Positions 34,251 to 52,345 of a stretch of 64,000 nt of DNA are shown here, piece after piece; within the stretch, counting starts at the first letter, position 1, and each line of letters starts with the position of its first letter. The position numbers and the translations under genes are program-made. The notes below the pieces were generated by a model. The model saw only the letters and a program-made list of their open reading frames with translations. It made no database searches and was not told the DNA's origin. Origin of the DNA: Candidatus Saccharimonadales bacterium (lineage in GTDB: Bacteria; Patescibacteriota; Saccharimonadia; Saccharimonadales; UBA4665); the NCBI GenBank assembly GCA_046350675.1, contig JAXLZZ010000008.1:5726-69725 (forward strand). The letters are read 5' to 3'.

Positions 34251-34605
34251 TTCGGCCTATTCAGCCTCGCTTTCACTACGCCTACGACAAATGTCTTAAG
34301 CTTGCAACAACAAATAACTCGCTGGATCGTTCTACAAAAAGCACGCCGTCACCAATAAATTGGCTCCGACTCCTTGTACGCACATAATTTCAGGATCTAT
34401 TTCACTCCCCTTCCGGGGTTCTTTTAACCTTTCCCTCACGGTACTTGTACACTATCGATCGTAAGATATATTTAGCCTTGGAAGGTGGACCTTCCAGATT
34501 CAATCAGGGTTTCACGTGTCCCGACCTACTCGACACTAGAAATGATAAAGTTCGTAACATTTGGCGTACCGGGCTATCACCGTCTTTGGCCAGACTTTCC
34601 AGACT

Positions 34606-36591: not shown

Positions 36592-39500
36592 TTACTCGAC
36601 GATGAAGTAGTCGAAGGTATACGTGGTATTAGGCGCCAGGGTCTGACCGGTGCTGAGCATGAAGTCGTTGACCGTCTTGCCCTTAGGATAGATGCGGGAG
36701 TTGACGCTGTTATCATCCTGGCCGGTCAGCAACACTTTAGGCGTCTTGCCGAAGACCTTGCTGAAGTCCACCTTGGTCAAGTCGCCAGCACTGACCCCTG
36801 TTGCACCGGTGGTAATGGTAATTGTGCCCGAGGTGTCATTACCGTCGATATTGACCGCCGCACCACTGCCGGCTGCCGTCAGGATATTACCCACCGGCGC
36901 CCCGCCCTTGGTAATGATATGTCCACTGACTTCTATATCAGCAACCTTAAGCGTGGTAACTGTTAGCGTGCCTTCAATATCGGCGTCACCTGTAACTGTT
37001 AGGGCAGCTATGCTTGCGCTATTGGTTACGGTTAAGCTGCCGGTGGTTGCAGACCCAGCTACAGATAAATCTCCGTCTATCGCAGCGTTACTTGTTACAT
37101 TAAGCGATTGAAGCGTGCTGGTCCCTGAAGCGTTTAAACCACCGCTAAAGCTGGCAGTGCCACTGTTCGAGATATTAGTGCTATTAAGTTGAGCGGTACT
37201 AAAGCTGGTGTTATAGCCATTTAGCTTGTTGACGATGGCCTTTTCACCGCCCCATAGGTAGCCATAGACACTGAACCAATCGGGTTGCGGGTTACCGTTG
37301 CTGTCGTTTGTTGGCGTTAGATTCGCAGGTAAATATTCTGATATTACGCCGGTACGTACCCCCGCCGCCCCGTCATTCCATTCGTAGTTAAATATAGGAG
37401 TTGCAGATATTTCACCCAGAATGCGATCAAGATTTACTTCGTCTATCTGGTTGATATTGTGCTTGTAGTTTTGTGAGCTAGAACAGTTAGATAGTATGTT
37501 TGAGCCATTCCTACACACGGGATTACCTGCTCCGCCAGCAACTAGACTAGTCTGAATTATGCCCGTAACGATTAAGTTTTGACCGACATTAGTATCAGCT
37601 CCGGAGTTTAGGCTACCCACTGCGGTAACATAGCCTGCGGCAATTATCCAGTTATCAGAGAAAATACCAGATCCTGCCCTCAGGTAAGTCGAAGATTTGA
37701 TGTAAGTACCGTCATTATACAGGTAAGCACCGGATTGGCCGCTAAGCCAAAATGAACCACCCAAAAACAGTCCGGTATTAGAGTACAGGCCATAGGAGTT
37801 GTGCGAACCGAGGTACCAACTCGTCTGATCGCCGCCGCCCAAATCTGTACGACCCGGATATATGTATCCAGCCGTTCGCAAACCACCAGATCCAAGATAT
37901 GCAACATGGGTTCCACCGGTGTTATTTGCTAAGAACTGTATCCAGCCAGATTTAGTGTATAACTCGTTGTAGGTGCCGCCACCATAAGCTATGTTTTGAC
38001 TAGCACTCTGTAAATATGACCCTGTGTTTATAGCGCCCGTGGAACTTATAGTGCTGGAGCCAGTTACAGCGCCAGTCACGGCTAGGGTTGATGAAATAGC
38101 CGCTGTGCCGGAGACTTGCAGTGTGGCGCCACCGCTGGTCACTGATGAGCCGATACCGACTTCTCCCGTTGAAGCAACAACTAAGCGTCGTGTCAGCGAG
38201 GTGTCAGAAGTTAGTGATTTGGTAGCAATATACACATTACCCGCACCACCGCCAGCGCTATTAGCCTGTATATCAGTACCGATGCTGGCGTATCTTCCTA
38301 TGTTGGTGTCGGCAACAGCGCCAAGCACTACTTCACCGCCGCCGTTAACTGTAAAGCTATTATTAGTGAGCAAGATACGAGCGTCCTTTTGGCCGACTGT
38401 GGTCGAAGTCGTTGCTGGGCCAGTAACAGTTAGCGTATTACCAAGACTCGTTGTGCTGGTAACTGCAAGTGTACTCTGTAGCGTGGTTGCCCCGGCTACG
38501 ACGAGAGCATCATCGGTCTTTAGGGTGTTGCTAGTAGAGCGATATAGATTGGTATCTGTACCGAATGTTATGCCAGTACTAGCTGTTCCGCCAGTTCCTC
38601 CGAGCTGTAATGAGTAAGTGTCAGCTGCCCCAATATAGATACCGACGTCACTAGATCCAGCTGTCTGAGGGTCAACATATATTCCATAATTATTGGTTAT
38701 TGTACCTCCACCGCTATTTATTGCAGCCTGGGCATATAGACCGTACGCTGTACTAATTGTGCCTGTGCTGCTATTTTGTATAACACCGTTTACTCCGTAA
38801 GCATTACTAATACTTCCGGTATTTGAATTAGTGATTATCCCGCGCACACCGTAGCCAGAACCCAAAGTAGCACCGGCAACAGTGTTTTGGGTATTTCCGT
38901 AAATACCAAACAACCTAGAATTTGCATTCACATTTGTGTTGCCTACAGTTGTATTACTTGTGAATGATACAAAGTCTGTCAGAGATCCAGGTGCGCTTGC
39001 TGGCGACACTGTCAAATTATTTGATGTCATTGTATTTACACCAGAAATTGCAGTACTTGTAAGCGATAAGGTGTTGCTTGATCCAGATACTGTTATGCCA
39101 GCTTGTCCAGTGATTGAGCCCACCACAGATAAAGAGTCGTCTGTTTTTAATGTATCCGCCGCGGAGCGGTAAAGGTTCGTATCACCGCCAATTGTTATGC
39201 CGGTGTTTGAGCCAGTTGATGAAAGTTGCAATGTTGTTTTACCGCCAGCGTTGCTTACGGTCAAAGCCGAGCCAGTACTGACCGTACCAGAAGCCGAAGT
39301 GAGTGTTAGAGCGGCGCTGCCACCTGACTGAATGCTCAAGTAACCTGTGCTGCTTAGACTTCCGTCAGATAAAGTGGTGCTGCCAGCACCAACCACCACA
39401 CCGCCGAGGAAATAACCCTGGAAGAAACGGTTACTTTGGGTTGCGTAATCGTTAGCGCTGGTAACAGCACCGATATTCTGAGCCGTGTATTTAGTGATCG

Positions 39501-42500
39501 TCGCATTTCCTGTGAATCCAGCCGTCGTGCCATAACTGACCGCCGGACTAATTGTAAGTGTGGTCGTGCCACCACCCGCGGTGATGCGAGTATAGTAATC
39601 TTGTCCGCTACCGCCGGTGTTATCTACAAAAATAATATCGCCATTCGCAAAAGCGCCGGCCGCAGACAGTGTAATAGTTGTAACATTTGTGCCTCCCGTG
39701 CCGCTGGTTGTACCCGTAGTGCCAGTCGCCACCGCATTGGCTACCAGGTCGCCGTTAGCAATCAGCTTATTGTTGCTGGTTGTATCAGCTGTAAATAGTG
39801 CATTGCCGCCGGAATTTTGAATCTGGAATTTAGTAGCGCTATTGCCCCCAGCGGCACCGCCTATCATAAGCGCATCGTCGGTGGTTAAAGTGTCTGCTGC
39901 ACTGCGGTAGAGGTTGGTGTCGCCACCGATAGTGATGCCTGTGTTACTGCCAGTTGAGCTGAGTTGTAGTGTTGTCTTACCGCCGTTGTTGCTGATATCC
40001 ACGGCCGACCCCGTGCCAACCGTTCCCGAGGCGGAGGTCAGCGTCAATTGACTGCTGCCGCCCGACGCGACTGCGAGCGCGCCATTGGCTGTGAGGTTAA
40101 GTGAGGTGCCAAGGCTAACGGTATTTGAGCCACCTTGTAGCGTAAGGTTACCAATAGTGGTGCTAATAGTGCTGGCTGCGCCAGCCGTGACAGTGATAGC
40201 GCTCGCGCTCACGAGACTGATAGCTCCGGCTGCGCTGTTGCCAATGCTCACGGTGCCGGTGCTTGTACCGGTGTTGATATTAGTGTTGTTGTTGCTGTTA
40301 TTGTTGAGCTGGACGGTGCCGCCGGCGATTGTGCTAGCACCGGTAATTGTCGCGCCGCCAGCCGAGACAGTCAGGCCACCACTGGTAACGGTCGCGCCGC
40401 TAGCTACCGTCAGTGTACCGGCAATCGTAGAACTACCGATGCCATTGACAGTTAGAACGCCTGCTTGAACACTATCACCTGCTTCGTTGACGCTGTACTT
40501 ACTGCTGCCATTGACCTGTAGATTGATCAAGTTGCCGGTAAAACCATTGGCAGCGTTAATCACCGTGTTGCCGGCGTAGGTCAAGGTGGTGCCAGACTCG
40601 CTCAGACCAGAGTCTGCAACGGTGTTAGAAGCAGTAAACTTGGCCAATTTGCCCGGGGTACCGCTACCCAGCACGCCGCCGCCCGTACCTGCACAGTTGG
40701 CCAGAGTCAGCAGACAGACGGTGTCACTAGAGCCACCGGCGATACTCGGGAGCTGGATGGTGGCGTTACCGGTGCCGGTAGGATTCAAGCCCTGTAGCAC
40801 GACTAGTCGTGAGGATGTGGAGTTGGCCAGATTCAAGCTACCTGTGACCGATGCGCCAACGCCAAGCGTCAGTCCGCCTGCTCCCTGCACCGCCACCGTA
40901 CCCGTAAAGTTAGCGCTGCTACTGATAGTCTGGCCGTTGATTAGACCGGAAGTGATAGTTCCGCTGCCGGCATTGATGTTGGCGTTGTTGGTGACAATAC
41001 CCCCATTGGCATTGAGTTGACCAGTCAAGGTGGTGGCACCGGTTACGGCTAGGGTTGATGAAATAGCCGCTGTGCCGGAGACTTGCAGTGTGGCGCCACC
41101 GCTGGTCACTGATGAGCCGATACCGACTTCTCCCGTTGAAGCAACAACTAAGCGTCGTGTCAGCGAGGTGTCAGAAGTTAGTGATTTGGTAGCAATATAC
41201 ACATTACCCGCACCACCGCCAGCGCTATTAGCCTGTATATCAGTACCGATGCTGGCGTATCTTCCTATGTTGGTGTCGGCAACAGCGCCAAGCACTACTT
41301 CACCGCCGCCGTTAACTGTAAAGCTATTATTAGTGAGCAAGATACGAGCGTCCTTTTGGCCGACTGTGGTCGAAGTCGTTGCTGGGCCAGTAACAGTTAG
41401 CGTATTACCAAGACTCGTTGTGCTGGTAACTGCAAGTGTACTCTGTAGCGTGGTTGCCCCGGCTACGACGAGAGCATCATCGGTCTTAAGCGTGTCGGCA
41501 GCTGAGCGGTAGAGGTTGGTGTCAGTGCCGATAAGCAGTCCCCCCGAAGAGCCAGTGGCCAGCACGCTCAAGCGGCCGTTGGAGTCAATGGTTAGTCTCT
41601 GAGCACCGGCGGTCTCGTCGGATATCGAGAAGGTACCGGCACGCGAACCAACCACAAACTGTCGACCCGTTCCTGACGCAGTATCACTGAAGTACATGCT
41701 GGCAGCGTTCCAGACTACAGAGCTGTCGCCCGTCAGTTCAATCGGGCCGCCCTGGACACCAAACTTGCTGCCACCGCTATAGCCACCGACCGATAAGTAG
41801 CCACCGATGGCGGCGTTGTTCGTAACAGATAGGGCCGTACCTGCTGCACTGAAGGTATTGGCAGCACTAAAGTTGTTGGCTTGGTTCAAGTAGGCCACAT
41901 TATTGAGGGTGCCTGCGGTGTTGATGTTGGCCCCACCCAGCTGGATGGCGCCGGTGGCGTTGAAAGTGCCGGTAGCCGTTATCACGCTGCCACTTTCACT
42001 CAACAATGAGTCACCAATCGTCCCAGCACCGGTGAACTTAGCAATCGTGCCGGTAGTACCGCTGCCGGTGATGCCACCGCCACTGCCAGCACAGTTGCCC
42101 AGGGTGACAAGACAGACATCATCAGTTGAGCCACCGGCGATAGTCGGAATACGAATGGTGGCATTACCAGTACCACTTGGGTTAAGACCCTGAATGATAA
42201 CCTGTCGTGAAGATGATGAGTTTGCTAGGTAGAGACTGCCGGCAGTGGTACCTGGTGTACCAATACTGACACTAGCTCCTTGGACAGCCAGGGTGCCGGT
42301 GAAGACAGGGCTACTGACAATGTCGAGCGTATTGCTGCTGAAGCCACCACCAGCGGTGCCGCTGACCGTACCAGTCAGATTACCGCTGCCGGTGAAGCTC
42401 AGGCTAGTGTTACCTTGGGCGGCGGTGCCGCTGGTAGAACCGTAACTCACATTAAGCGTTGTGCTACTACCAAGAGCTACACTACCACCGCCGGTCAAGC

Positions 42501-45500: not shown

Positions 45501-48500
45501 TACCAGTAAACTTAGCAATCTGGCCGCTCGTGCCAGAGCCAGTGATACCGCCACCACTACCGGCACAGTTGCCTAGAGTTACCAGGCAGACATCATCAGT
45601 ACTACCACCAGCTATGCTTGGGATTCTAATGGTGGCATTACCGGTACCACTTGGGTTTAGACCTTGCAGTATGACTTGGCGGGAGGAGCTAGCATTAGCT
45701 AGGTATAAGCTACCAGCTGTAGTACCTGGTGTACCAATACTGACACTAGCTCCTTGGACAGCCAGGGTGCCAGTGAAGTTCGCACTGGAGCTGATGGTTT
45801 GGCCGTTATAGGTGCCACCGGTGACGGTGCTAGCTACAGCAAGTGTGCCAGTGAAATTAGCGGCACTAGAGATAGTCTGACCATTGATGTTGCCAGAAGT
45901 GATAGTGCCACCAATACTCACGTCATTCGTCACACTCAACGCCGTACCAGCCGCACTGAAGGTATTGGCTGCACTGAAGTTATTAGCTTGGTTCAAGTAG
46001 GCGACGTTGGTAAGCGTGCCTGCTGTATTGATGTCTGCGCCACCAAGCTGTAATGCGGTCGTGGCATTGACGGTACCGCCCTGGACGGTAGCAGTGGTAG
46101 TGATGTTATTGCCTGTAGAGATAGTGCCAAACCCACTAGCGATGCTACCAGCACTCAGGGCTCCGGTGCCGGTGATGTTGCTGAAGGTACCGCTGGCTAG
46201 GTTGCTATTGGTGATCTTACCATTGACGATGGCACTGCCGTTGTACTGGAGGACATCACCACTGCTTATTGAGCTGATGGTCAGTGTAGTACCTTGGAGC
46301 TTGGCAATGGTTGGGTTTGGATAGGTGCCGGTTAGGTCACCACCAGCTGCACCAGAAGCACCGGCACAGTTGCCAAGGGTGTAGAGACACACCGTATCTG
46401 TACTACCACCAGCTATGGTTGGGAATTGGATGGTGGCATTCCCCGTACCGCTTGGGTTTAAGCCCTGTAGGATGACTTGGCGAGATGAGCTAGAGTTGGC
46501 GAGGTAGAGTGAGCCAGTAGTGGTACCTGGTGTACCAATACTGACACTAGCTCCTTGGACAGCTAGGGTACCGGTGAAGACAGGGCTACTGACAATGTCG
46601 AGCGTATTGCTGCTGAAGCCACCACCAGCGGTGCCGCTGACCGTACCAGTCAGATTACCGCTGCCGGTGAAGCTCAGGCTAGTGTTACCTTGGGCGGCGG
46701 TGCCGCTGGTAGAACCGTAACTCACATTAAGCGTTGTGCTACTACCAAGAGCTACACTACCACCGCCGGTCAAGCCAGTACCAGCAGTAACAGTGAGAGC
46801 ACCGCTACCTACCAGACGAGCGTTGGCGACAGTGCCGGTTGTAATAGCGGTACCGTTGAGGTTTGTTAGAGCTGAAGCATTGAGTGCTGGCAAGTAGCCT
46901 GAGCCATCAAGCTGTACGAGCTGGTTAGCGCCGTTGAAGGTGTTGCCCTGGAGCGTAACGTTGCTGCTGAGATAGGTGTCTCCGACCGTACCAGAGCTGA
47001 TGTTGCTGCCGTTGAGGTTCGTTATACCTGAGCCATTGCCAGTGAAGGTATTGCTACCAATGTTGATATTGCCAAACCCACTAGCGATGCTACCAGCACT
47101 CAGGGCTCCGGTGCCGGTGATGTTGCTGAAGGTACCGCTGGCTAGGTTGCTATTGGTGATCTTACCATTGACGATGGCACTGCCGTTGTACTGGAGGACA
47201 TCACCACTGCTTATTGAGCTGATGGTCAGTGTAGTACCTTGGAGCTTGGCAATGGTTGGGTTTGGATAGGTGCCGGTTAGGTCACCACCAGCTGCACCAG
47301 AAGCACCGGCACAGTTGCCAAGGGTGTAGAGACACACCGTATCTGTACTACCACCAGCTATGGTTGGGAATTGGATGGTGGCATTCCCCGTACCGCTTGG
47401 GTTTAAGCCCTGTAGGATGACTTGGCGAGATGAGCTAGAGTTGGCGAGGTAGAGTGAGCCAGTAGTGGTACCTGGTGTACCAATACTGACACTAGCTCCT
47501 TGGACAGCTAGGGTACCGGTGAAGACAGGGCTACTGACAATGTCGAGCGTATTGCTGCTGAAGCCACCACCAGCGGTGCCGCTGACCGTACCAGTCAGAT
47601 TACCGCTGCCGGTGAAGCTCAGGCTAGTGTTACCTTGGGCGGCGGTGCCGGCCCCACTGCCATAGGTGACACTCAACGTCGGCGTGCTGCCTGCTCCGCT
47701 GTTGCCAGTGGTACTGAGGCCGGTGAGTGTACCGAGAGTGGCCACGTAGTTACCCGTGGTCTCTGAGCCCAGAGCTACAGCGCCGGTACTCAACACCCCA
47801 CTCCCATTGGTGTGGACGACACCGGCGCTGTTAAGGCCAGAGAAAGTGATGGTGCCAGCGGCGGTCAAGCCACCACTGATACTAGCACCGCCGGTTGTAA
47901 CACTGAGAGCTCCATTGAGAGTTAGGCCAGCAAAGGTTGGTGTGGCAGCAGTGCTGATGCCTTGGATAGTGTTGACCGTACCACTACTGACACTGAAGTT
48001 AGTACTGTTGAACTGGGCGATGCCCTTCTGTGAAGTTGAAGCGTCGTCGATGGTGATGGTGCCAGCCGAACCGCTGGAGTTGGCTAGAGTCAGTACGCCG
48101 GTCTGGCCATCCAGACTGGTCACGCCACCGCCGGCGCCGCCAGTACAACTGTCAAAGCTGAGGTTACCGCTAGCGTCCGTAATCAAGCAGTCACCGTTAG
48201 CGCCAAGATCAGTTGGCAGCGTCAGATTGAAGCTAGAATTGGCAACACCGGATTGCAACGTCACAGTGTTGGCATTAGTGTCATTGTTGAACACAATCGC
48301 CCCATTAACCGTGGAACCTACACCGAGCACCAACCCACCTCCACCCTGTGCCGTAACCGTCCCGCTAAAGGTCGGGTTATTGATAATGCTGATATCACTA
48401 CAAGCACCCCCGGACCCAAGCGTAATCACATCGCCGCCGCCGCTCAGATTGCCGGTGCCGCTGGCACAGGTCAGCGTTACGTTACCCTGGACGGCCGTGC

Positions 48501-51375
48501 CGGCCCCACTGCCATAGGTGACACTCAACGTCGGTGTACTGCCTGCTCCACTGTTGCCAGTGGTACTGAGGCCGGTGAGTGTACCGAGAGTGGCCACGTA
48601 GTTACCAGTGGTTTCAGTGCCGAGAACTACCGAGCCGGTGCTCAGATTACCAGATCCATCAGCCCGCACTACGCCGCCACTGTTCAAGCTAGAGAAGGTG
48701 ATGGTTCCGGTTGCAGAGAGGCCGCCAGCCGCAACAGTCAAGCCGGTACCAACATCCAAGCTGCCGGCCACATTGGTATTACCATTGACATCCAGTTTGT
48801 AACTGGCGCCCGGGCTACTGGTAGCCACCCCGATTGAGGTGCCGTTATCGTAGAGCAAGGAATTGCCAAGCTGATTAGCACCAGCGTTAGTAAACTTTGG
48901 AATGTAAAATTGCGTGCCGCCACTGACCGTCACGCCACCACCCGAACCGACACAGTTGCCAAGGTTGAGTAGACAGACCGTATCACTGGCTACGCTGGAC
49001 ACCGGAATAGTTATCGTTTGGTTCTGCCCGGCAGGTGCCAGGGCCTGCAAGGTCGTAAAGTGGCTGTTGCTCGCGTTATAGAAAGTCAGGCTGCCGGCAG
49101 TCGTACTGGCCACGCCCAGACTCAAGCCGGCGCTACCCTGTACGCTGGCCCCACCGCTGGTCACCACATTACCTGAGCCATCCACCGTGAAGCTACCGCC
49201 AGCGATGCTCAGCGTACCGCCTTGCATCGCGGCCGTCGTAGAGATAGCGTTACCGGTTGAGATACTACCGAAGCCCGAAGCGATGCTGCCACTGGTAAGC
49301 GCGCCAGTCGTCGTGATATTGCCTTGCACGGCCGTCGGCAAAGTCTGGCTCAGGCTCGGCACGCTTGAACCGTTGGTGACCAGTACGCTGTTGGCTGCTG
49401 ACGCGGTCACTTGCAGCGCCGAGGTACCATTGCCGTAAAGGATGCCGTTAAGAGTTAAGTTGTTAGCGCCGGTACCACCGTTCGCTACGCTCAACTCACT
49501 GGTAAAGTAACTGGTGCTATTACGATCAACCACGCCACTCGTCAGATTACCGCTCCCATCGCTGTATAGTAGCCCGGCACCATAACTACTGAACTGTACC
49601 GCCCCACCGACCGTTAAATCGTTAGCCACACTCAGGGCATCGCCGACCGTCAGCGTGCCAGCGATCGACGAAGTACCGCTGCCATTCACCGTCAGCGTGC
49701 CGCCGTGAATGATATTGCCCAGCTGATCGACACTCAGCTTGCTGCTCCCATTGACTGCTAAGTTCAGCAGGTTGCCAGTGAAGCCGCTGGCGGCGTTGAC
49801 GATCAGGTTGCCGCCATACGTCAAGCTGGTACCGGACTCCGTCAGATTCGAATCGGTGATATCGCCCGACGCATCGAACTTGGCGATGTGACCGATGGTA
49901 CCGAAACCAGTGATACCACTACCGGCACCGGCACAGTTACCGGTCGTCAGACAGATGCCCACCGACGCAACGCCAGGATCCGGCAGGATGTAGGTCGTGT
50001 TCTGGCCGAGCACCGCCGATTGAATCGTGCCGACGTAGGCATTGCTGCTGTTCGCAAAACTGATTGATCCATTGGATGTGCCTGGTTGGCCCAAGTTAAG
50101 CCCACTAAATGTTGGGGTTGATCCAGTAGCAATATCTTGTGGTAATGACAACGTTAGAGAACCGCTGCTTGCCGAAGCAATGACTTGATTTGCTGTACCA
50201 GTAATACTTACAACACCGGTGTTGTTAATCTGATTACCGGTGTTGCTGAGCCCTGCTCCAAGCGTAAATGCACCGCTATTACCTGCAATTGAACTAACGA
50301 TACTTGGTGCTCCCTGGACCTGGCTCCAGCCAATGGTGCCGGTAGTAATTTGCCCTGTTTGATTTACAACAAAAACATTTGTGCTGTTGTTTGCAAGTTG
50401 AAGCAAATTGCCGGTTCCTGTTTTATTGATGTTGATTGATGAGGTATTGGTAGGATCAACCTGAGCTGAACTCGGACCCAACGCAACCGTACCTCCACCG
50501 CCTGAACCCGCTACGCTCACAGTGTAATTCCCATTGCCGTCATTCCCCACGGTTAGGTCTGCCGAGGTAGATGTAAGCGTGACTACTCCGTTATTCCGGA
50601 TGGTAGTACCACTGATGCCTATGCCGGTGCCTGCCACAAGTCGAACATCACCCGTTAAGCCCTGTAGACTATTCACCCGAGGTGTGTTCAAACTGCCATT
50701 TATGTTTTGTAACAGATTGGCGGAGATGTTCAACTGACCATTCGTCATGCTAAGGGTATTGCCCAACCCGATGATGCCAGCCGCACCACCCAAGCTGGTA
50801 ACCGTCTGTGGAATAGCAGTCGGTGCCATGCTGATAAACTGCGTACCGTTGAAGTAAAACAGCGTGTTCGAAGCTTTGTCGAAGTAAATTTGACCAGCTA
50901 CCGGTGCGGATGGTGCCGAGCCCGGCGAGAGTACGAAGGTGTTTTTAACGATCAGCTGGCCATTTACTGAAAGTTTGTCGGCCTGTCCGAGTTTAAGCGT
51001 ATCATTCGGCTTGACGTCGTTCACCGAAAGTTGCGTGGCAGAATAATTAGTCTTGTTACGCTCTGCCGCTGATTTATCATCTGCCGAGGGATTATTGCCG
51101 AATAGCATAATCCCAAGAATGCCAACGACAAAAATCACAACTAGCGCTGCAGCAGTGATAAGTAAGGCACTTTTGTTGAACTTGAATAGTGAGGGGCCTT
51201 TAGGTGCAAGCTCACTCCGAGGTACCTCAAGGGCGGTTGGAGTCGGGATTACAGAGGGTTCAGAAGATGGCGATACCACAGTAGATGGCGTAGCCTGAAC
51301 AGACTGTGCTGATTTAGGCAGCTCCAATATAGCGTCATAGTCATCATTTTCTAAGCTCTTATAGCTAGGACCCAT
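36592..51375 (-). CDS. giant membrane-anchored fibre/adhesin-like surface protein (4927 aa)
   Basis: A single uninterrupted 14,784-nt ORF with one N-terminal helix (aa 69-92). It is followed by thousands of residues of G/T/S/A/N-rich repeats with recurring modules: ..LQGLNPSGTGNATIQFPTIAGGSTDTVCLYTLGNCAG.., ..LDGQTGVLTL..DDASTSQKGIAQFN.., ..TNLYRSAADTLKTDD.. The + strand shadow ORFs are P/V-rich. Confidence 0.93.
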   Translation of the reverse strand: MGPSYKSLENDDYDAILELPKSAQSVQATPSTVVSPSSEPSVIPTPTALEVPRSELAPKGPSLFKFNKSALLITAAALVVIFVVGILGIMLFGNNPSADDKSAAERNKTNYSATQLSVNDVKPNDTLKLGQADKLSVNGQLIVKNTFVLSPGSAPSAPVAGQIYFDKASNTLFYFNGTQFISMAPTAIPQTVTSLGGAAGIIGLGNTLSMTNGQLNISANLLQNINGSLNTPRVNSLQGLTGDVRLVAGTGIGISGTTIRNNGVVTLTSTSADLTVGNDGNGNYTVSVAGSGGGGTVALGPSSAQVDPTNTSSININKTGTGNLLQLANNSTNVFVVNQTGQITTGTIGWSQVQGAPSIVSSIAGNSGAFTLGAGLSNTGNQINNTGVVSITGTANQVIASASSGSLTLSLPQDIATGSTPTFSGLNLGQPGTSNGSISFANSSNAYVGTIQSAVLGQNTTYILPDPGVASVGICLTTGNCAGAGSGITGFGTIGHIAKFDASGDITDSNLTESGTSLTYGGNLIVNAASGFTGNLLNLAVNGSSKLSVDQLGNIIHGGTLTVNGSGTSSIAGTLTVGDALSVANDLTVGGAVQFSSYGAGLLYSDGSGNLTSGVVDRNSTSYFTSELSVANGGTGANNLTLNGILYGNGTSALQVTASAANSVLVTNGSSVPSLSQTLPTAVQGNITTTGALTSGSIASGFGSISTGNAISTTAAMQGGTLSIAGGSFTVDGSGNVVTSGGASVQGSAGLSLGVASTTAGSLTFYNASNSHFTTLQALAPAGQNQTITIPVSSVASDTVCLLNLGNCVGSGGGVTVSGGTQFYIPKFTNAGANQLGNSLLYDNGTSIGVATSSPGASYKLDVNGNTNVAGSLDVGTGLTVAAGGLSATGTITFSSLNSGGVVRADGSGNLSTGSVVLGTETTGNYVATLGTLTGLSTTGNSGAGSTPTLSVTYGSGAGTAVQGNVTLTCASGTGNLSGGGDVITLGSGGACSDISIINNPTFSGTVTAQGGGGLVLGVGSTVNGAIVFNNDTNANTVTLQSGVANSSFNLTLPTDLGANGDCLITDASGNLSFDSCTGGAGGGVTSLDGQTGVLTLANSSGSAGTITIDDASTSQKGIAQFNSTNFSVSSGTVNTIQGISTAATPTFAGLTLNGALSVTTGGASISGGLTAAGTITFSGLNSAGVVHTNGSGVLSTGAVALGSETTGNYVATLGTLTGLSTTGNSGAGSTPTLSVTYGSGAGTAAQGNTSLSFTGSGNLTGTVSGTAGGGFSSNTLDIVSSPVFTGTLAVQGASVSIGTPGTTTGSLYLANSSSSRQVILQGLNPSGTGNATIQFPTIAGGSTDTVCLYTLGNCAGASGAAGGDLTGTYPNPTIAKLQGTTLTISSISSGDVLQYNGSAIVNGKITNSNLASGTFSNITGTGALSAGSIASGFGNINIGSNTFTGNGSGITNLNGSNISSGTVGDTYLSSNVTLQGNTFNGANQLVQLDGSGYLPALNASALTNLNGTAITTGTVANARLVGSGALTVTAGTGLTGGGSVALGSSTTLNVSYGSTSGTAAQGNTSLSFTGSGNLTGTVSGTAGGGFSSNTLDIVSSPVFTGTLAVQGASVSIGTPGTTTGSLYLANSSSSRQVILQGLNPSGTGNATIQFPTIAGGSTDTVCLYTLGNCAGASGAAGGDLTGTYPNPTIAKLQGTTLTISSISSGDVLQYNGSAIVNGKITNSNLASGTFSNITGTGALSAGSIASGFGTISTGNNITTTATVQGGTVNATTALQLGGADINTAGTLTNVAYLNQANNFSAANTFSAAGTALSVTNDVSIGGTITSGNINGQTISSAANFTGTLAVASTVTGGTYNGQTISSSANFTGTLAVQGASVSIGTPGTTAGSLYLANASSSRQVILQGLNPSGTGNATIRIPSIAGGSTDDVCLVTLGNCAGSGGGITGSGTSGQIAKFTGSGTIADSSLSESGSVVTASGSVVVQGSGSLTLGTASTNTGSIAFKNATNGNTVTLQSGVSGSTFTLTLPTTAGANGDCLQSNGSGVLSFAACTGGAGGGVTSLDGQTGVLTLANSSGSAGTITIDDASTSQKGIAQFNSTNFSVSSGTVNTIQGISTAATPTFAGLTLNGALSVTTGGASISGGLTAAGTITFSGLNSAGVVHTNGSGVLSTGAVALGSETTGNYVATLGTLTGLSTTGNSGAGSTPTLSVTYGSGAGTAAQGNTSLSFTGSGNLTGTVSGTAGGGFSSNTLDIVSSPVFTGTLAVQGASVSIGTPGTTTGSLYLANSSSSRQVILQGLNPSGTGNATIQFPTIAGGSTDTVCLYTLGNCAGASGAAGGDLTGTYPNPTIAKLQGTTLTISSISSGDVLQYNGSAIVNGKITNSNLASGTFSNITGTGALSAGSIASGFGTISTGNNITTTATVQGGTVNATTALQLGGADINTAGTLTNVAYLNQANNFSAANTFSAAGTALSVTNDVSIGGTITSGNINGQTISSAANFTGTLAVASTVTGGTYNGQTISSSANFTGTLAVQGASVSIGTPGTTAGSLYLANASSSRQVILQGLNPSGTGNATIRIPSIAGGSTDDVCLVTLGNCAGSGGGITGSGTSGQIAKFTGSGTIADSSLSESGSVVTASGSVVVQGSGSLTLGTASTNTGSIAFKNATNGNTVTLQSGVSGSTFTLTLPTTAGANGDCLQSNGSGVLSFAACTGGAGGGVTSLDGQTGVLTLANSSGSAGTITIDDASTSQKGIAQFNSTNFSVSSGTVNTIQGISTAATPTFAGLTLNGALSVTTGGASISGGLTAAGTITFSGLNSAGVVHTNGSGVLSTGAIVNADLQAGTFSNITGTGALSAGSIASGFGNINIGSNTFTGNGSGITNLNGSNISSGTVGDTYLSSNVTLQGNTFNGANQLVQLDGSGYLPALNASALTNLNGTAITTGTVANARLVGSGALTVTAGTGLTGGGSVALGSSTTLNVSYGSTSGTAAQGNTSLSFTGSGNLTGTVSGTAGGGFSSNTLDIVSSPVFTGTLAVQGASVSIGTPGTTAGSLYLANSSSSRQVIIQGLNPSGTGNATIRIPTIAGGSTDDVCLVTLGNCAGSGGGITGSGTTGTIAKFTGAGTIGDSLLSESGSVITATGTFNATGAIQLGGANINTAGTLNNVAYLNQANNFSAANTFSAAGTALSVTNNAAIGGYLSVGGYSGGSKFGVQGGPIELTGDSSVVWNAASMYFSDTASGTGRQFVVGSRAGTFSISDETAGAQRLTIDSNGRLSVLATGSSGGLLIGTDTNLYRSAADTLKTDDALVVAGATTLQSTLAVTSTTSLGNTLTVTGPATTSTTVGQKDARILLTNNSFTVNGGGEVVLGAVADTNIGRYASIGTDIQANSAGGGAGNVYIATKSLTSDTSLTRRLVVASTGEVGIGSSVTSGGATLQVSGTAAISSTLAVTGATTLTGQLNANGGIVTNNANINAGSGTITSGLINGQTISSSANFTGTVAVQGAGGLTLGVGASVTGSLNLANSTSSRLVVLQGLNPTGTGNATIQLPSIAGGSSDTVCLLTLANCAGTGGGVLGSGTPGKLAKFTASNTVADSGLSESGTTLTYAGNTVINAANGFTGNLINLQVNGSSKYSVNEAGDSVQAGVLTVNGIGSSTIAGTLTVASGATVTSGGLTVSAGGATITGASTIAGGTVQLNNNSNNNTNINTGTSTGTVSIGNSAAGAISLVSASAITVTAGAASTISTTIGNLTLQGGSNTVSLGTSLNLTANGALAVASGGSSQLTLTSASGTVGTGSAVDISNNGGKTTLQLSSTGSNTGITIGGDTNLYRSAADTLTTDDALMIGGAAGGNSATKFQIQNSGGNALFTADTTSNNKLIANGDLVANAVATGTTGTTSGTGGTNVTTITLSAAGAFANGDIIFVDNTGGSGQDYYTRITAGGGTTTLTISPAVSYGTTAGFTGNATITKYTAQNIGAVTSANDYATQSNRFFQGYFLGGVVVGAGSTTLSDGSLSSTGYLSIQSGGSAALTLTSASGTVSTGSALTVSNAGGKTTLQLSSTGSNTGITIGGDTNLYRSAADTLKTDDSLSVVGSITGQAGITVSGSSNTLSLTSTAISGVNTMTSNNLTVSPASAPGSLTDFVSFTSNTTVGNTNVNANSRLFGIYGNTQNTVAGATLGSGYGVRGIITNSNTGSISNAYGVNGVIQNSSTGTISTAYGLYAQAAINSGGGTITNNYGIYVDPQTAGSSDVGIYIGAADTYSLQLGGTGGTASTGITFGTDTNLYRSTSNTLKTDDALVVAGATTLQSTLAVTSTTSLGNTLTVTGPATTSTTVGQKDARILLTNNSFTVNGGGEVVLGAVADTNIGRYASIGTDIQANSAGGGAGNVYIATKSLTSDTSLTRRLVVASTGEVGIGSSVTSGGATLQVSGTAAISSTLAVTGAVTGSSTISSTGAINTGSYLQSASQNIAYGGGTYNELYTKSGWIQFLANNTGGTHVAYLGSGGLRTAGYIYPGRTDLGGGDQTSWYLGSHNSYGLYSNTGLFLGGSFWLSGQSGAYLYNDGTYIKSSTYLRAGSGIFSDNWIIAAGYVTAVGSLNSGADTNVGQNLIVTGIIQTSLVAGGAGNPVCRNGSNILSNCSSSQNYKHNINQIDEVNLDRILGEISATPIFNYEWNDGAAGVRTGVISEYLPANLTPTNDSNGNPQPDWFSVYGYLWGGEKAIVNKLNGYNTSFSTAQLNSTNISNSGTASFSGGLNASGTSTLQSLNVTSNAAIDGDLSVAGSATTGSLTVTNSASIAALTVTGDADIEGTLTVTTLKVADIEVSGHIITKGGAPVGNILTAAGSGAAVNIDGNDTSGTITITTGATGVSAGDLTKVDFSKVFGKTPKVLLTGQDDNSVNSRIYPKGKTVNDFMLSTGQTLAPNTTYTFDYFIVE
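37225..37488 (-). other. peptidase S74-like intramolecular chaperone (tail-fibre/endosialidase C-terminal) motif region inside the giant protein
   Basis: NCSSSQNYKHNINQIDEVNLDRILGEISATPIFNYEWNDGAAGVRTGVISEYLPANL...SVYGYLWGGEKAIVNKL follows the S..(R/Y)K.NI / LDKIL..PV.F.Y / G.IAQE..P / V.Y..L....I.A.KEL pattern. It starts 298 aa before the C-terminus. Confidence 0.5.
38078..38520 (-). repeat. 443-nt repeat, copy A (identical by eye to 41045-41487)
   Basis: The offset is 2967 nt. Boundaries were set at the first mismatches (38077/41044 and 38521/41488). The shadow-ORF translations are identical. Confidence 0.85.
41045..41487 (-). repeat. 443-nt repeat, copy B
   Basis: See 38078-38520. Confidence 0.85.
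42244..48148 (-). repeat. 5.9-kb mosaic of near-identical modules inside the giant gene
   Basis: Three block matches:
- 42887-44731 = 44861-46705 (offset 1974).
- 44151-45229 = 47070-48148 (offset 2919).
- 42244-42861 = 46519-47136 (offset 4275, at least 2 synonymous differences).
Boundaries were set at the first mismatches. Several shadow ORFs are identical in translation. Confidence 0.85.
51100..51171 (-). other. single predicted transmembrane helix of the giant protein (aa 69-92)
   Basis: SALLITAAALVVIFVVGILGIMLF, preceded by KFNK. Confidence 0.7.
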
Positions 51376-51523: not shown

Positions 51524-52345
51524 TTATCGCAGCAGGAAGAAAATTATTGCACCGGCCAAAACGGCGGTAATAACTGCCATGAGCACCACCGAGCTAAGCG
51601 AACGAAAGATTGCATTTTTGGCAAGTGGATTGCGTCCGATAGAGATAATACTACCGTAAATTGCCCCGTAAATCAGGGTAATTAACACCGTAATAGCAAT
51701 GACCGCTACGACGATACTGATGACGATTCTGGCCGGTGATATCACCTTGCCAGTCAATGACTTTGCGAACCGTTGCAATCCTGTAAGTTCCTCGCCGTTA
51801 CCGGCTGATGTATCCGAGCCTACCCCTATCGTAATTCGCACCATGCCCACGTCAATAGAGCTGGTTTTGCCAGACTTGTCAGTCACCTGTTTGCGCACTA
51901 CACCATCGGTAGAGGAGTTCAGCTCTGTCAGAGCCAAGCCAATGACGTTCGCACCAGGGGTAGATTTCATGCCAATCCCGTCAAACGGCGAGACACTAAT
52001 CAAATCTCCGACCTTTATGGGTCCGTTGAGCGTACTTGCCAACACCGTAGCAGATCCAGTTGTAGCAACCTGTACTTTCCCACCTTGAGAATCAACTGCC
52101 AACAGCGAGTCCTCACTCTTCACGGCCACGCCAAAAAGCTGCGAGCCATTGGCAGTATTTGCTAGTTGCACATAGCCAGATTTACTGGGGTCAAGACTTA
52201 CAAGACTGCTATCTGGGATATCTTGGCTGGTTTTGTATGCTTTTGATATTTCAGCTGCAATCGCGCCGGCTACAGATACGCCTGCGACTAACAGGAATAC
52301 GCTCACCACTGTAAGTACATGCCGATAGCGGCGCAACACCTTCAT
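51524..52345 (-). CDS. membrane protein (N-terminal signal/anchor, extracytoplasmic domain, two C-terminal helices), directly upstream of the giant gene
   Basis: MKVLRRYRHVLTVVSVFLLVAGVSVAGA... and C-terminal IVISIVVAVIAITVLITLIYG / VVLMAVITAVLAGAIIFFLL. Confidence 0.75.
   Translation of the reverse strand: MKVLRRYRHVLTVVSVFLLVAGVSVAGAIAAEISKAYKTSQDIPDSSLVSLDPSKSGYVQLANTANGSQLFGVAVKSEDSLLAVDSQGGKVQVATTGSATVLASTLNGPIKVGDLISVSPFDGIGMKSTPGANVIGLALTELNSSTDGVVRKQVTDKSGKTSSIDVGMVRITIGVGSDTSAGNGEELTGLQRFAKSLTGKVISPARIVISIVVAVIAITVLITLIYGAIYGSIISIGRNPLAKNAIFRSLSSVVLMAVITAVLAGAIIFFLLR

What the first reader, a model, noticed from the sequence alone, without database searches (positions are those of the whole stretch)
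36592..51375. 4,927-aa membrane-anchored fibre-like giant protein occupying 23 percent of the window
**Architecture**
- One uninterrupted 14.8-kb ORF.
- About 68 N-terminal residues, one transmembrane helix, then about 4,800 residues nearly devoid of charged amino acids.

**Repeated modules**
- Each module carries a Cys pair, for example DTVCLYTLGNCAG, DDVCLVTLGNCAGSGGG and GDCLQSNGSGVLSFAACTGG.
- There are tail-fibre-like 'DDASTSQKGIAQFNSTNF' segments and recurrent 'TNLYRSAADTLKTDD' punctuation.

**Why it matters**
- In an epibiotic, reduced-genome lineage such as Saccharibacteria, a cell-anchored fibre of this size is a prime candidate for host attachment.
- The module grammar does not match any adhesin family I can name.
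- The gene directly upstream (51524-52345) encodes a membrane protein and may be a partner.
Basis: partly seen in the sequence, partly recalled or inferred. Interest (0 to 1): 0.8.

Follow-up and report, generated by a model that had tools for sequence, protein, structure and literature searches.

The report
Giant membrane-anchored tail-fibre-like surface protein
A soil or wastewater Saccharibacteria genome encodes a real 4,927-residue, membrane-anchored surface fibre built from phage-tail-fibre-type parts, one member of a large uncharacterised family that comes with a conserved helper gene and may mediate contact with host cells.

Summary
The 14.8-kb ORF (36592-51375, minus strand) is real.

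It is not an orphan. Its last ~180 residues (a beta-solenoid plus a confidently predicted beta-sandwich) define a Saccharibacteria-restricted family:
- at least 756 clusters at 50% identity;
- lengths from about 250 to more than 4,600 residues, with still longer gene calls beside partner homologues.

Just upstream of that module sits a divergent Peptidase_S74 intramolecular-chaperone domain with an intact Ser-x4-Lys dyad (Ser4633/Lys4638). Many relatives carry a Peptidase_G2-type chaperone domain at the same position, and never both.

The upstream 273-residue gene is a conserved neighbour. Its ectodomain is homologous to that G2-type domain but lacks the catalytic Glu.

The partner-fibre cassette lies between 16S-tRNAs and 23S-5S, here and in other genomes.

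Best reading: a trimeric, cell-anchored, tail-fibre-like appendage matured by a C-terminal self-cleaving assembly module, helped by a membrane-tethered chaperone-like partner. Host attachment is plausible but untested. The copy number of the perfect 1.8-kb internal repeats is unverified.

The parts
36592..51375 (-). Whole giant ORF: 4,927 codons plus the stop codon
51172..51375 (-). N-terminal tail, residues 1-68, predicted cytoplasmic. It contains a KSLEN motif ('SLE'), which recurs in the N-terminal tails of many family members.
51097..51171 (-). Single transmembrane helix (signal anchor), about residues 69-93
   Evidence: Kyte-Doolittle 19-residue mean of up to 2.98. Nearly all complete family members have an N-terminal hydrophobic helix.
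50506..51078 (-). Conserved juxtamembrane region, about residues 100-290, including AGQIYFDKASNTLFYFNGTQF
   Evidence: It aligns to P0025, P0038, P0044, P0046 and the L085 giant. The GQIYFD motif is also present in L003 and L069.
40681..50028 (-). Mosaic repeat region, residues 450-3565, carrying 13 of the 14 Cys pairs. The module types are LYLAN...D.VCL..GNC, F.N..N..TLQ...GDCL..C, DUF5907-like GDLTGTYPNPT, KGIAQF, ETTGNYV and YGS..GTA.QGN.
42887..44731 (-). Copy 1 of the perfect 1,845-bp direct repeat (in-frame period of 1,974 bp = 658 codons)
44861..46705 (-). Copy 2 of the perfect 1,845-bp direct repeat
47161..47286 (-). DUF5907-like repeat, residues 1364-1405. Further copies lie at 46216-46341 and 44242-44367.
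   Evidence: Distant hits that carry Pfam PF19264 align exactly here.
38056..40680 (-). Cys-free distal shaft, residues 3566-4440, punctuated by TNLYRS..TLKTDD. It includes a 496-bp repeat at 97% identity (38069-38564 = 41036-41531).
37480..38055 (-). Aromatic-rich segment, residues 4441-4632 (W+Y+F 11.9% against about 4% elsewhere). It ends in the Cys4621/Cys4631 loop. It would be the tip of the mature fibre if S74 cleavage occurs. It is not conserved in the closest C-terminal relative, P0001.
37141..37479 (-). Divergent Peptidase_S74-type intramolecular chaperone domain, residues 4633 to about 4745. The putative dyad is Ser4633/Lys4638 (SSQNYKHNI).
   Evidence: - Pfam on the whole protein: E 0.21.
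- Pfam on the isolated segment: E 0.0015, 19.2 bits against a cut-off of 22.
- The Ser and Lys columns are invariant in the 13-sequence alignment.
- The family profile matches solved intramolecular chaperone domains 8jov, 6f45, 8hqz, 7dc3 and 3gud.
36937..37140 (-). Beta-solenoid linker, residues 4746-4813
   Evidence: Weak Bactofilin/FapA-type solenoid matches in relatives. AF2 predicts strands at pLDDT 55-75.
36595..36936 (-). Family-defining C-terminal beta-sandwich, residues 4814-4927, H-type-lectin-like
   Evidence: - AF2 pLDDT of 96-98.
- Conserved in 27 database proteins, 104 genome loci and at least 756 clusters.
- Weak Pfam H_lectin matches in 7 of 24 and 7 of 56 relatives.
- Foldseek similarity to phage proteins labelled H-type lectin and to Helix pomatia agglutinin.
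51524..52345 (-). Partner gene, 273 residues: signal peptide, an ectodomain related to the Peptidase_G2 chaperone domain but without the catalytic Glu, and a C-terminal two-helix hairpin with an IGRNPLA loop
56462..57924 (-). 16S rRNA gene, upstream context on the same strand
54419..54728 (-). tRNA-Ala(TGC) and tRNA-Ile(GAT) between the 16S gene and the cassette
31056..35185 (-). 23S rRNA (31516-35185) and 5S rRNA (31056-31170), downstream context on the same strand

Best explanation
The ORF encodes a cell-surface appendage built like a greatly elongated phage tail fibre.

**Proposed layout and assembly**
- A short N-terminal tail stays in the cytoplasm, and one transmembrane helix anchors the chain.
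- About 4,800 residues are exported. They form a homotrimeric, beta-structured shaft made of recombining tail-fibre-type modules, many clasped by a short disulfide loop.
- Folding and chain registration are nucleated at the C-terminus by a conserved cassette: an S74-type intramolecular chaperone domain, a beta-solenoid, and a lectin-like beta-sandwich.
- The Ser4633/Lys4638 dyad then probably cuts the chain. This releases or unmasks the cassette and leaves an aromatic-rich, variable domain (residues 4441-4632) as the distal tip.
- The upstream 273-residue protein is a membrane-tethered, non-catalytic paralogue of the alternative (Peptidase_G2-type) chaperone domain. It most likely acts in trans as an assembly or docking factor next to the membrane.
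- The mature fibre would reach roughly 200 nm. This is my estimate, scaled from T4 long tail fibres (recalled from memory: about 0.05 nm per residue). It is comparable to the size of the cell.
- Its most likely use is contact with glycan or protein receptors on host bacteria.

**Shown here**
- The ORF, the anchor helix and the composition.
- Family membership.
- The S74 motif.
- The conserved partner and its homology to the in-line G2-type domain.
- The conserved genomic position.

**Inferred**
- Trimer formation, cleavage, the role of the partner, and adhesion.
For: **Anchor and export**
- There is a single hydrophobic helix after a 68-residue tail. Nearly all complete relatives have the same N-terminal helix.

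**Tail-fibre nature**
- S74-type domain: the Ser and Lys columns are invariant. 12 of 13 family segments match Pfam Peptidase_S74, best E 4e-17.
- The family profile matches solved intramolecular chaperone domains of tail fibres and of MYRF (8jov at 6e-17, 6f45 at 5e-13, 8hqz, 7dc3, 3gud).
- Relatives of the modules carry S74, Collar, DUF5907, Gly_rich_2 and YadA_stalk/T7-tail domains.
- There is a cyanophage 'tail fiber-like' match.

**Conserved cassette with a variable tip**
- The C-terminal module is found in 104 genome loci, almost all Saccharibacteria, and in at least 756 clusters at E <= 1e-30, always at the C-terminus.
- The closest relative, P0001, aligns only from residue 4628 onward.
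- The AF2 model of the terminal domain has pLDDT 96-98. It resembles phage fibre ends and H-type lectins.

**Partner**
- Homologues lie adjacent in about 20 loci, next to both 300-residue and giant members.
- Its ectodomain profile matches an in-line domain in 107 of 253 family sequences, 98-275 residues (mostly 155-235) from the C-terminus. That domain is mutually exclusive with S74 (26 of 253).
- The in-line domain is Peptidase_G2-type (13 of 56 members, best E 2.6e-9). It has a D.AE motif in 62 of 85 cases.

**Chromosomal, not viral**
- GC3 equals that of the neighbouring genes.
- The flanking genes are housekeeping genes.
- The position between 16S-tRNAs and 23S-5S is the same in CAWIDU010000001.1. 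The 23S gene lies directly downstream in three more genomes.

**Variability expected of a recognition organelle**
- A contig from run SRR7877888 is 99.8% identical up to residue 443, then switches to different modules.
- Near-perfect in-gene duplications recur in relatives.
Against: - The giant's own S74 segment is below Pfam's curated cut-off (19.2 bits against 22). It has TGVISEY where relatives have G.IAQE, so catalytic competence is uncertain.
- The S74 domain is not at the C-terminus, unlike every characterised case. Cleavage would detach the very domain that defines the family.
- Short members (about 300 residues) have the solenoid and C-terminal domain with no chaperone domain. The C-terminal domain may therefore be a functional head, not merely an assembly handle.
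- The monomer AF2 model of the 659-residue repeat period was uninformative (mean pLDDT 52). Neither the trimeric state nor the shaft fold is shown.
- No Foldseek match to the PDB reached E < 1e-3.
- There is no evidence on expression, localisation, binding or host.
- The hydrophobic segment could be a cleaved long signal peptide, in which case the fibre is secreted, not anchored.
- The exact 4,927-residue product is absent from the 15-billion-protein collection. The perfect 1.8-kb repeats make copy number, and therefore length, unverified.
Confidence: 0.55

Rival explanations
1. The protein is a non-adhesive envelope structure. It would form a glycocalyx-like or S-layer-like coat, a spacer, or a shield (for example against phages or desiccation), or it would mediate self-aggregation rather than host recognition.
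For: - The composition is very low in charge and rich in Gly/Ser/Thr/Asn, with 132 N-x-S/T sequons.
- Several genomes carry multiple paralogues: L008 and L017 on one contig; L010, L016 and L050 in one bin.
- Short members of about 300 residues have the same C-terminal domain but cannot reach far from the cell.
Against: - Tail-fibre-type chaperone domains and a variable segment upstream of the conserved cassette are hallmarks of receptor-binding fibres.
- Strain-level module swapping suggests diversifying selection on a recognition surface.
- The lectin-like terminal fold points the same way.
Confidence: 0.22
2. The giant length is partly an assembly artefact. The perfect repeats have the wrong copy number, or contigs from different strains were joined, so the true gene is shorter, longer or split.
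For: - A 1,845-bp repeat at 100% identity and a 1,084-bp repeat at 99.9% lie inside the gene.
- The exact product is not on record.
- An independent short-read contig breaks and diverges after residue 443.
- Most database relatives are fragments at contig ends.
Against: - All repeat offsets are in frame.
- Both ends of the ORF have the family's canonical N-terminal and C-terminal architecture, and the same flanks as in another genome: partner upstream, 23S downstream.
- Many relatives exceed 3,000-4,600 residues, some on contigs of several hundred kb to more than 1 Mb.
- Near-perfect in-gene repeats recur in relatives, including on large contigs of 540-720 kb.
Confidence: 0.15
3. It is a prophage-borne or tailocin-borne tail fibre gene, a viral structural protein and not a cellular surface protein.
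For: - S74-type and G2-type chaperone domains, DUF5907 and Collar-containing relatives are typical of phage fibres.
- Foldseek matches to uncultured Caudovirales proteins reach E 1.6e-12.
Against: - The protein has an N-terminal membrane anchor.
- There is no PHROG match.
- There are no phage genes nearby. The neighbours are gyrA/B, rRNA, tRNA, IF2, FtsZ and others.
- The chromosomal position is conserved across genomes.
- GC3 equals that of the host genes.
- The C-terminal domain has no relative in 2.9 million IMG/VR contigs.
Confidence: 0.03
4. It is a monomeric beta-solenoid adhesin. The S74-like segment is a degenerate relic with no trimerising or cleaving role.
For: - The giant's S74 score is below the Pfam cut-off and the G.IAQE motif is altered.
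- NCBI's annotation names related fragments 'beta strand repeat-containing protein'.
Against: - The Ser and Lys of the dyad are retained in all 13 aligned members despite only 17-44% identity.
- A second type of trimerising chaperone domain (G2) occupies the same position in other members. This argues that the function of that slot is maintained.
Confidence: 0.05

Closest known systems
Phage tail fibres and tailspikes with a C-terminal Peptidase_S74 intramolecular chaperone domain (K1F/endoNF endosialidase; T5 L-shaped fibre pb1, PDB 6f45 and 8hqz; fibre 8jov)
   Same: - The Ser-x4-Lys motif, in an S[SD]xx[LYF]Kx[ND][IV] context.
- Beta-rich, low-charge fibre modules.
- A variable segment directly upstream of the putative cleavage site.
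- Profile matches at E 6e-17 to 5e-10.
   Different: - The chain has an N-terminal transmembrane helix, not attachment to a virion.
- It is 5-10 times longer.
- The S74 domain is followed by about 180 further residues (solenoid plus beta-sandwich) instead of ending the chain.
- The giant's own domain scores below Pfam's cut-off.
- The gene is chromosomal, in a conserved cellular locus.
Bacillus phage phi29/GA-1 pre-neck appendage protein gp12 (Peptidase_G2 autoproteolytic intramolecular chaperone domain, PF11962)
   Same: - The in-line domain in 107 of 253 family members matches PF11962 (13 of 56 members, best E 2.6e-9) and carries the D.AE motif.
- The partner's ectodomain is homologous to that in-line domain, with E down to 1e-24.
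   Different: - The partner is a separate, signal-peptide-bearing membrane protein with a C-terminal helical hairpin.
- It has Q/K/H/R in place of the Glu, so it is presumably non-proteolytic.
- It does not match PF11962 directly.
Myelin regulatory factor (MYRF; PDB 7dc3)
   Same: A cellular membrane protein that uses an S74-type intramolecular chaperone domain. From the literature, recalled from memory, that domain trimerises the protein and cuts it. The profile match is E 2.6e-9.
   Different: - It is eukaryotic.
- Cleavage frees an N-terminal transcription factor from a C-terminal anchor.
- Here the anchor is N-terminal and the released piece would be extracellular.
Trimeric autotransporter adhesins (YadA, BadA) and other giant bacterial adhesins (serine-rich repeat proteins; RTX adhesins such as the Marinomonas ice-binding adhesin; Giant1-5 of Apilactobacillus kunkeei, PMC12863079)
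   Same: - Very long, repetitive, surface-exposed fibres thought to bridge cells.
- One distant module relative carries YadA_stalk.
   Different: - No C-terminal beta-barrel anchor.
- No LPXTG motif and no RTX GGxGxD repeats, apart from one chance match.
- No Ig-like repeat domains were detected.
- The anchoring and the maturation logic are different.
H-type lectins (Helix pomatia agglutinin, PF09458) and phage proteins with H-type lectin domains
   Same: - A C-terminal beta-sandwich of about 110 residues.
- Weak Pfam H_lectin matches in relatives (best E 1.4e-4).
- Foldseek probability of 0.75 to 2ce6 and 1.0 to phage 'H-type lectin domain' models, with TM-score (target-normalised) of 0.54.
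   Different: - The giant's own domain has no Pfam match.
- All structural E-values are weak (>= 2e-3 for the entries labelled as lectins).
- Sugar-binding residues were not examined.

Membership tests
Peptidase_S74 intramolecular-chaperone tail-fibre/tailspike proteins | Sequence match to the S74 domain model above the curated threshold | tested here: inconclusive
   - Giant, whole protein: E 0.21, 12.3 bits.
- Giant, isolated segment: E 0.0015, 19.2 bits against a cut-off of 22.
- 12 of 13 homologous segments match, best E 4.3e-17.
- The family profile matches solved intramolecular chaperone domains at E 6e-17.
Peptidase_S74 intramolecular-chaperone tail-fibre/tailspike proteins | Catalytic Ser-Lys dyad spaced Ser-x4-Lys at the start of the domain | tested here: met
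   SSQNYK at residues 4633-4638. The Ser and Lys columns are invariant in the 13-sequence alignment.
Peptidase_S74 intramolecular-chaperone tail-fibre/tailspike proteins | The chaperone domain is the C-terminal end of the protein | tested here: not met
   About 180 residues (solenoid plus beta-sandwich) follow the domain. In relatives the motif sits 253-325 residues from the C-terminus.
Peptidase_S74 intramolecular-chaperone tail-fibre/tailspike proteins | Homotrimer formation and autoproteolytic release of the chaperone domain | not testable with these tools
   The monomer AF2 model of the S74 region has pLDDT below 50. No multimer prediction or proteomics was available.
Saccharibacterial fibre family with the conserved C-terminal solenoid plus beta-sandwich (defined here) | C-terminal GH[IL][IV]..G..P...G.DT.GTITI.TG...F...[FY]...P.V......Y.F.Y module at the very C-terminus | tested here: met
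   Invariant G, H, G, G, D, G, T, T, G, F and Y columns. Matches.
Saccharibacterial fibre family with the conserved C-terminal solenoid plus beta-sandwich (defined here) | N-terminal hydrophobic helix (signal anchor or signal peptide) | tested here: met
Saccharibacterial fibre family with the conserved C-terminal solenoid plus beta-sandwich (defined here) | Adjacent gene for the partner of about 275 residues | tested here: met
   The partner is 148 bp upstream on the same strand. Homologues lie next to family members in about 20 loci. The partner was not seen at every locus.
H-type lectin (PF09458) | Pfam match and lectin fold with sugar-binding residues | tested here: inconclusive
   - The giant's domain has no Pfam match. 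7 of 24 and 7 of 56 relatives match weakly.
- Foldseek gives only weak matches.
- Binding residues were not examined.
Trimeric autotransporter adhesins | C-terminal 12-stranded beta-barrel translocator anchor in an outer membrane | tested here: not met
   There is no such domain in Pfam or in the AF2 model. The only hydrophobic helix is N-terminal.
Sortase-anchored (LPXTG) or RTX-type giant adhesins | C-terminal LPXTG sorting signal, or GGxGxD calcium-binding repeats with a type I secretion signal | tested here: not met
   No LPxTG motif. A single GGxGxD match is consistent with chance.
Peptidase_G2 intramolecular chaperone domain (for the partner protein) | Match to PF11962 and the catalytic D.AE motif | tested here: not met
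   - No partner-family member matches PF11962.
- The Glu position holds Q, K, H or R.
- Homology is only transitive, through the in-line domain.

The most novel reading that the evidence does not exclude
Saccharibacteria possess a lineage-wide, cell-anchored host-recognition organelle derived from phage tail-fibre parts.

- It is a membrane-anchored trimeric fibre of hundreds to nearly ten thousand residues.
- Its variable tip is exposed when a C-terminal self-cleaving cassette (S74-type or G2-type chaperone, plus solenoid, plus lectin-like domain) is cut off.
- Assembly happens at the membrane, with a dedicated membrane-tethered, chaperone-like partner whose helical hairpin may oligomerise.
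- The cassette is embedded in the rRNA operon, which may couple its expression to growth.
- The released lectin-like trimer could itself be a secreted factor.
Probability: 0.2. Interest if true: 0.8.

Novelty: new variant of a known kind. Interest (0 to 1): 0.6.

Why it matters
- How ultrasmall epibiotic bacteria find and hold their hosts is largely open. The papers I could search describe type IV pili and a few generic 'adhesins' (PMC10633639, PMC11665869, PMC12206443), and I found no description of this family.
- This analysis turns an anonymous giant ORF into a defined family with testable parts:
  - an anchor;
  - a recombining shaft;
  - a predicted cleavage site at Ser4633;
  - a conserved C-terminal module that folds confidently and can be expressed;
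  - a partner gene whose ectodomain occurs fused to the fibre in other members.
- That gives concrete handles for proteomics, cryo-ET, glycan arrays and genetics in cultivable Saccharimonadales.
- It also explains why these genes are usually fragmented in metagenome assemblies.
- If the family does mediate host contact, its strain-level mosaicism would be a natural determinant of host range.

Tried and rejected
- The homologue search with the whole protein timed out.
- Pfam, PHROGs, NCBIfam and the PDB sequence search on the whole protein gave nothing significant.
- The exact-sequence look-up of the giant found no record.
- The AF2 monomer model of the 659-residue repeat period was uninformative, with mean pLDDT 52, so no fold search was run on it.
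- The S74 part of the C-terminal model was also low-confidence.
- Foldseek against the PDB gave no match below E 1e-3.
- The IMG/VR scan for the C-terminal domain found no relative.
- The JGI metagenome scan with the N-terminal 440 residues found none.
- The phage-genome tblastn with the C-terminal 302 residues found nothing.
- Promoter and terminator scans around the gene were not above shuffled expectation.
- A profile-profile comparison of the partner against S74 showed no relationship. The two chaperone types are therefore alternatives, not homologues.
- The three ORFs between the tRNAs or the 16S gene and the partner (342, 203 and 230 residues) have no Pfam match and no counterpart in related loci. 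I do not count them as part of the system.
- Foreign origin of the gene was rejected. Its higher G+C comes from second codon positions, that is from amino-acid composition, and GC3 matches the neighbouring genes.
- Literature searches found no description of this family.


Full report
**1.

The window contains one uninterrupted ORF of 4,927 codons at 36592-51375 on the minus strand.
- The protein has a 68-residue N-terminal tail, then a single strongly hydrophobic helix at about residues 69-93.
- The remaining roughly 4,800 residues are 63% Gly/Thr/Ser/Ala/Asn and only 5.7% charged.
- All 28 cysteines fall into 14 consecutive pairs spaced 6-22 residues apart. Random placement never gave more than 7 such pairs in 20,000 trials.
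- One correction: the Cys pairs are limited to residues 475-3561 plus one pair at 4621/4631. The last quarter of the shaft has none.

At the DNA level the gene carries very recent in-frame duplications.
- A perfect 1,845-bp repeat (42887-44731 = 44861-46705).
- A 1,084-bp repeat at 99.9% identity, and several older ones. All offsets are multiples of three.

The higher G+C of the gene comes from second codon positions (0.58 against 0.34-0.45 in neighbouring genes). GC3 is the same as in the neighbours. The composition therefore reflects amino-acid content, not foreign origin.

**2. Organism and context**

The upstream protein is 100% identical to NCBI MFO0781954.1, locus tag U0524_03650, from a 'Candidatus Saccharimonadales bacterium' MAG contig of 69,984 bp.

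The surrounding genes are housekeeping genes: gyrB, gyrA, a class I aminoacyl-tRNA synthetase, ribonucleotide reductase, ftsZ, ftsA, priA, IF-2 and ribosomal protein S1.

The gene lies inside a split rRNA operon, with almost every element on the minus strand:
- 16S rRNA (56462-57924);
- a 230-residue ORF;
- tRNA-Ala and tRNA-Ile;
- ORFs of 203 and 342 residues;
- the 273-residue partner;
- the giant;
- a small GIY-YIG ORF, on the plus strand;
- 23S rRNA (31516-35185);
- 5S rRNA.

**3. It is a member of a large, unnamed family**

Whole-protein searches of Pfam, PHROGs, NCBIfam and PDB sequences gave nothing above threshold. The last ~180 residues tell a different story.
- They are conserved in 27 database proteins.
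- They occur in 104 loci among 185,579 species-representative genomes, nearly all labelled Saccharibacteria, Saccharimonadales or Patescibacteria.
- A profile search of 1.84 billion cluster representatives found 756 proteins at E <= 1e-30 and 3,647 at E <= 1e-10. The domain is always at the C-terminus.
- Lengths run from about 250 to 4,674 residues among the best 150, and 42 of those exceed 2,000.
- In the genome loci, ORFs carrying the domain range from 252 to more than 3,500 residues, where they run off the 10-kb flank.
- A JGI contig has an 8,533-residue gene call directly after a partner homologue. That gene has the same N-terminal tail, helix and juxtamembrane region as the window's protein.
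- In CAWIDU010000001.1 the fibre reading frames span 29 kb. There they are broken into several ORFs, in an assembly that also has frameshifted gyrA and gyrB.
- Sources name these proteins 'hypothetical', 'beta strand repeat-containing protein' or, once, 'fibronectin-binding autotransporter adhesin'.
- Searches of 8 million papers found no description of the family.

**4. Anatomy of the C-terminal part**

AF2 with a 24-sequence alignment predicts residues 4814-4927 as a beta-sandwich at pLDDT 96-98. It is preceded by beta-solenoid strands at moderate confidence.
- Relatives give weak Pfam H_lectin and Bactofilin/FapA-solenoid matches.
- Foldseek against the PDB gives only weak matches: tailspikes, pyocin fibres, the cyanophage Pam1 receptor-binding domain, Helix pomatia agglutinin and carbohydrate-binding modules.
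- Against predicted viral structures it finds uncultured Caudovirales proteins at E 1.6e-12 and 7.9e-9, and phage proteins labelled 'H-type lectin domain' at probability 1.0.

Immediately upstream, residues 4633 to about 4745 are a divergent Peptidase_S74 intramolecular chaperone domain.
- The sequence SSQNYKHNI supplies the Ser-x4-Lys dyad.
- In an alignment with 12 family members that carry the same motif 253-325 residues from their C-termini, Ser and Lys are invariant.
- 12 of 13 segments match Pfam S74, best E 4e-17. The giant's own segment reaches 19.2 bits against a cut-off of 22.
- The profile matches the solved chaperone domains of tail fibres (8jov, 6f45, 8hqz), of phi29 gp12 (3gud) and of MYRF (7dc3).
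- A Cys usually precedes the Ser.
- The 190 residues before the site are aromatic-rich (11.9% W+Y+F). They are not conserved in the closest relative, P0001, which aligns only from residue 4628 onward.
- This is the pattern of phage fibres: a variable receptor-binding end followed by a conserved, removable chaperone.

**5. The shaft**

Homologues of a 659-residue repeat period are mostly Saccharimonadales fragments. More distant hits carry several Pfam domains:
- DUF5907, which aligns exactly to GDLTGTYPNPT... at residues 1364, 1679 and 2337;
- Gly_rich_2;
- Peptidase_S74;
- phage Collar;
- YadA_stalk/T7 tail fibre.

A cyanophage 'tail fiber-like protein' matches weakly.

A monomer AF2 model of the period was uninformative, with mean pLDDT 52. 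This is what one expects of an obligate oligomeric fibre, but it proves nothing.

**6. The partner**

The 273-residue upstream protein has a signal peptide, an ectodomain of about 190 residues, and a C-terminal two-helix hairpin with a conserved IGRNPLA / IARQPLAK loop.
- It has 494 database homologues.
- Homologues lie next to family members in about 20 loci. Some are upstream and co-directional, others downstream and convergent. They accompany both 300-residue and giant members.

The strongest link is this. A profile of the partner family matches an in-line domain in 107 of 253 fibre-family sequences, at E 1e-6 to 1e-24.
- That domain always ends 98-275 residues (mostly 155-235) before the C-terminus, directly before the solenoid.
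- This is the slot that S74 occupies in 26 of the 253. No sequence has both.
- The in-line domain is Peptidase_G2-type, the phi29/GA-1 pre-neck-appendage chaperone domain: 13 of 56 members match, best E 2.6e-9.
- It carries the D.AE motif in 62 of 85 cases, again with a Cys a few residues upstream.
- The partner has Q, K, H or R at the Glu position. It begins at that point of the domain, right after its signal peptide.
- S74 and the partner domain are unrelated by profile-profile comparison.

The family therefore uses two alternative self-cleaving chaperone types in one slot. The partner is a free-standing, membrane-tethered, presumably non-catalytic copy of one of them.

The hairpin weakly resembles ATP-synthase c subunits (PDB E 0.15 and 0.37; one member matches Pfam ATP-synt_C at E 0.0027). 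I record this as a lead only.

**7. Conserved position and variability**

- In CAWIDU010000001.1 the order is gyrB-gyrA-16S-2 tRNAs-partner-fibre-23S-5S, the same as in the window.
- In three more genomes the fibre gene ends 0.4-4.8 kb upstream of a co-directional 23S-5S.
- In a fifth genome the 16S gene is adjacent to the partner-fibre pair.
- The C-terminal domain has no relative in IMG/VR.
- A short-read contig from run SRR7877888 is 99.8% identical to the window across the partner and the first 443 residues. It then switches abruptly to homologous but different modules.
- Near-perfect in-gene duplications also occur in relatives.

**8. Interpretation**

The best-supported reading is a cell-anchored, probably homotrimeric, tail-fibre-like appendage.
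- Its assembly is nucleated by a conserved C-terminal cassette.
- The cassette is probably cut at Ser4633, exposing a variable tip.
- The partner would act as a membrane-proximal assembly or docking factor.

Scaling from T4 long tail fibres (recalled from memory) gives about 200 nm.

Host attachment is the most natural function for an epibiont, but it rests on inference. A coat or shield role cannot be excluded.

Two further points are open.
- Cleavage would remove the family-defining domain, so its role as an assembly handle or a functional lectin head is unresolved.
- The repeat copy number in this assembly is unverified.

**9. Novelty**

The parts are of known kinds: tail-fibre modules, S74 and G2 chaperone domains, and a lectin-like sandwich. 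I did not find the following combination described:
- an N-terminal membrane anchor;
- an internal chaperone domain followed by a conserved solenoid-sandwich;
- a stand-alone membrane-tethered chaperone paralogue;
- a position inside the rRNA operon;
- restriction to Saccharibacteria.

I rate it a new variant of a known kind, of moderate-to-high interest.

Noticed in passing
window 31056-57924; L083/L006 (CAWIDU010000001.1); L026, L034, L048, L001: The rRNA operon is split by about 21 kb. The order is 16S, tRNA-Ala, tRNA-Ile, then the partner and the giant gene, then 23S and 5S, all on one strand. The same arrangement occurs in another Saccharimonadales genome. In three more genomes 23S-5S lies directly downstream of the fibre gene, and in a fifth the 16S gene is adjacent to the pair. 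Whether the cassette is co-transcribed with the rRNA is unknown.
   Followed up: partly
window 51524-52345; family sequences: The partner's ectodomain is homologous to a Peptidase_G2-type domain that sits in-line in 107 of 253 fibre-family sequences. That domain occupies the slot that S74 fills in 26 others, and no sequence has both. The partner lacks the catalytic Glu and starts at that point of the domain, right after its signal peptide.
   Followed up: yes
window 51524-51700 (partner C-terminus): The partner's C-terminal two-helix hairpin has a conserved IGRNPLA / IARQPLAK loop. Its only PDB sequence matches are ATP-synthase c subunits (E 0.15 and 0.37), and one family member matches Pfam ATP-synt_C at E 0.0027. 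This may hint at ring-like oligomerisation. There is no conserved acidic residue in helix 2.
   Followed up: partly
L082 (Logan SRR7877888 contig) against window 50046-52494: A contig from another dataset is 99.8% identical across the partner and the first 443 residues of the giant. It then diverges abruptly into different modules of the same kind. This looks like strain-level mosaic recombination in the shaft.
   Followed up: partly
window 51172-51375 and the N-termini of family members: A short 'SLE' motif (often DSLE or SSLE) recurs in the predicted cytoplasmic N-terminal tails of both 300-residue and giant members. By eye, about 25 of 61 signal-anchor sequences have it, and a looser [ST][LIVM]E pattern hit 33 of 61. 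My own estimate of the chance rate is about 2%. It might be a targeting or binding signal.
   Followed up: partly
window 31516-35185: The 23S rRNA gene spans 3,670 nt against a model of 2,925 positions, so it holds about 745 nt of insertions. No intron family reached threshold here and no endonuclease ORF is present. A relative's 23S gene (L048) does contain a group I intron.
   Followed up: partly
window 36058-36453 (+) and 36093-36131: A small GIY-YIG domain ORF (Pfam E 3e-16) lies on the opposite strand between the giant gene and the 23S gene. A 20-bp tandem repeat of two copies lies at its 5' end.
   Followed up: no
window 52562-53590, 53728-54339, 54786-55478 (all minus strand) and 55565-56155 (+): Four ORFs lie between the 16S gene and the partner. 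The 342-residue and 230-residue ORFs are highly charged, the 203-residue ORF has a C-terminal hydrophobic stretch, and the 196-residue ORF looks like a lipoprotein. None has a Pfam match, and the three minus-strand ORFs that were tested have no counterpart in related loci.
   Followed up: partly
L085 (JGI 3300009098 contig, 58,898 bp); L008/L017; L010/L016/L050: Some genomes carry several family members. One contig has a 4,630-residue gene (CBM_4_9 match) and an 8,533-residue gene flanking a partner homologue. These genes can take up several percent of a genome of about 0.8-1 Mb.
   Followed up: partly
L083 (CAWIDU010000001.1): In this assembly gyrA and gyrB are each split into several ORFs, and the fibre region is broken into 2,610 + 2,997 + at least 3,523 residues. 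This suggests indel errors, so the ORF lengths there are lower bounds.
   Followed up: no
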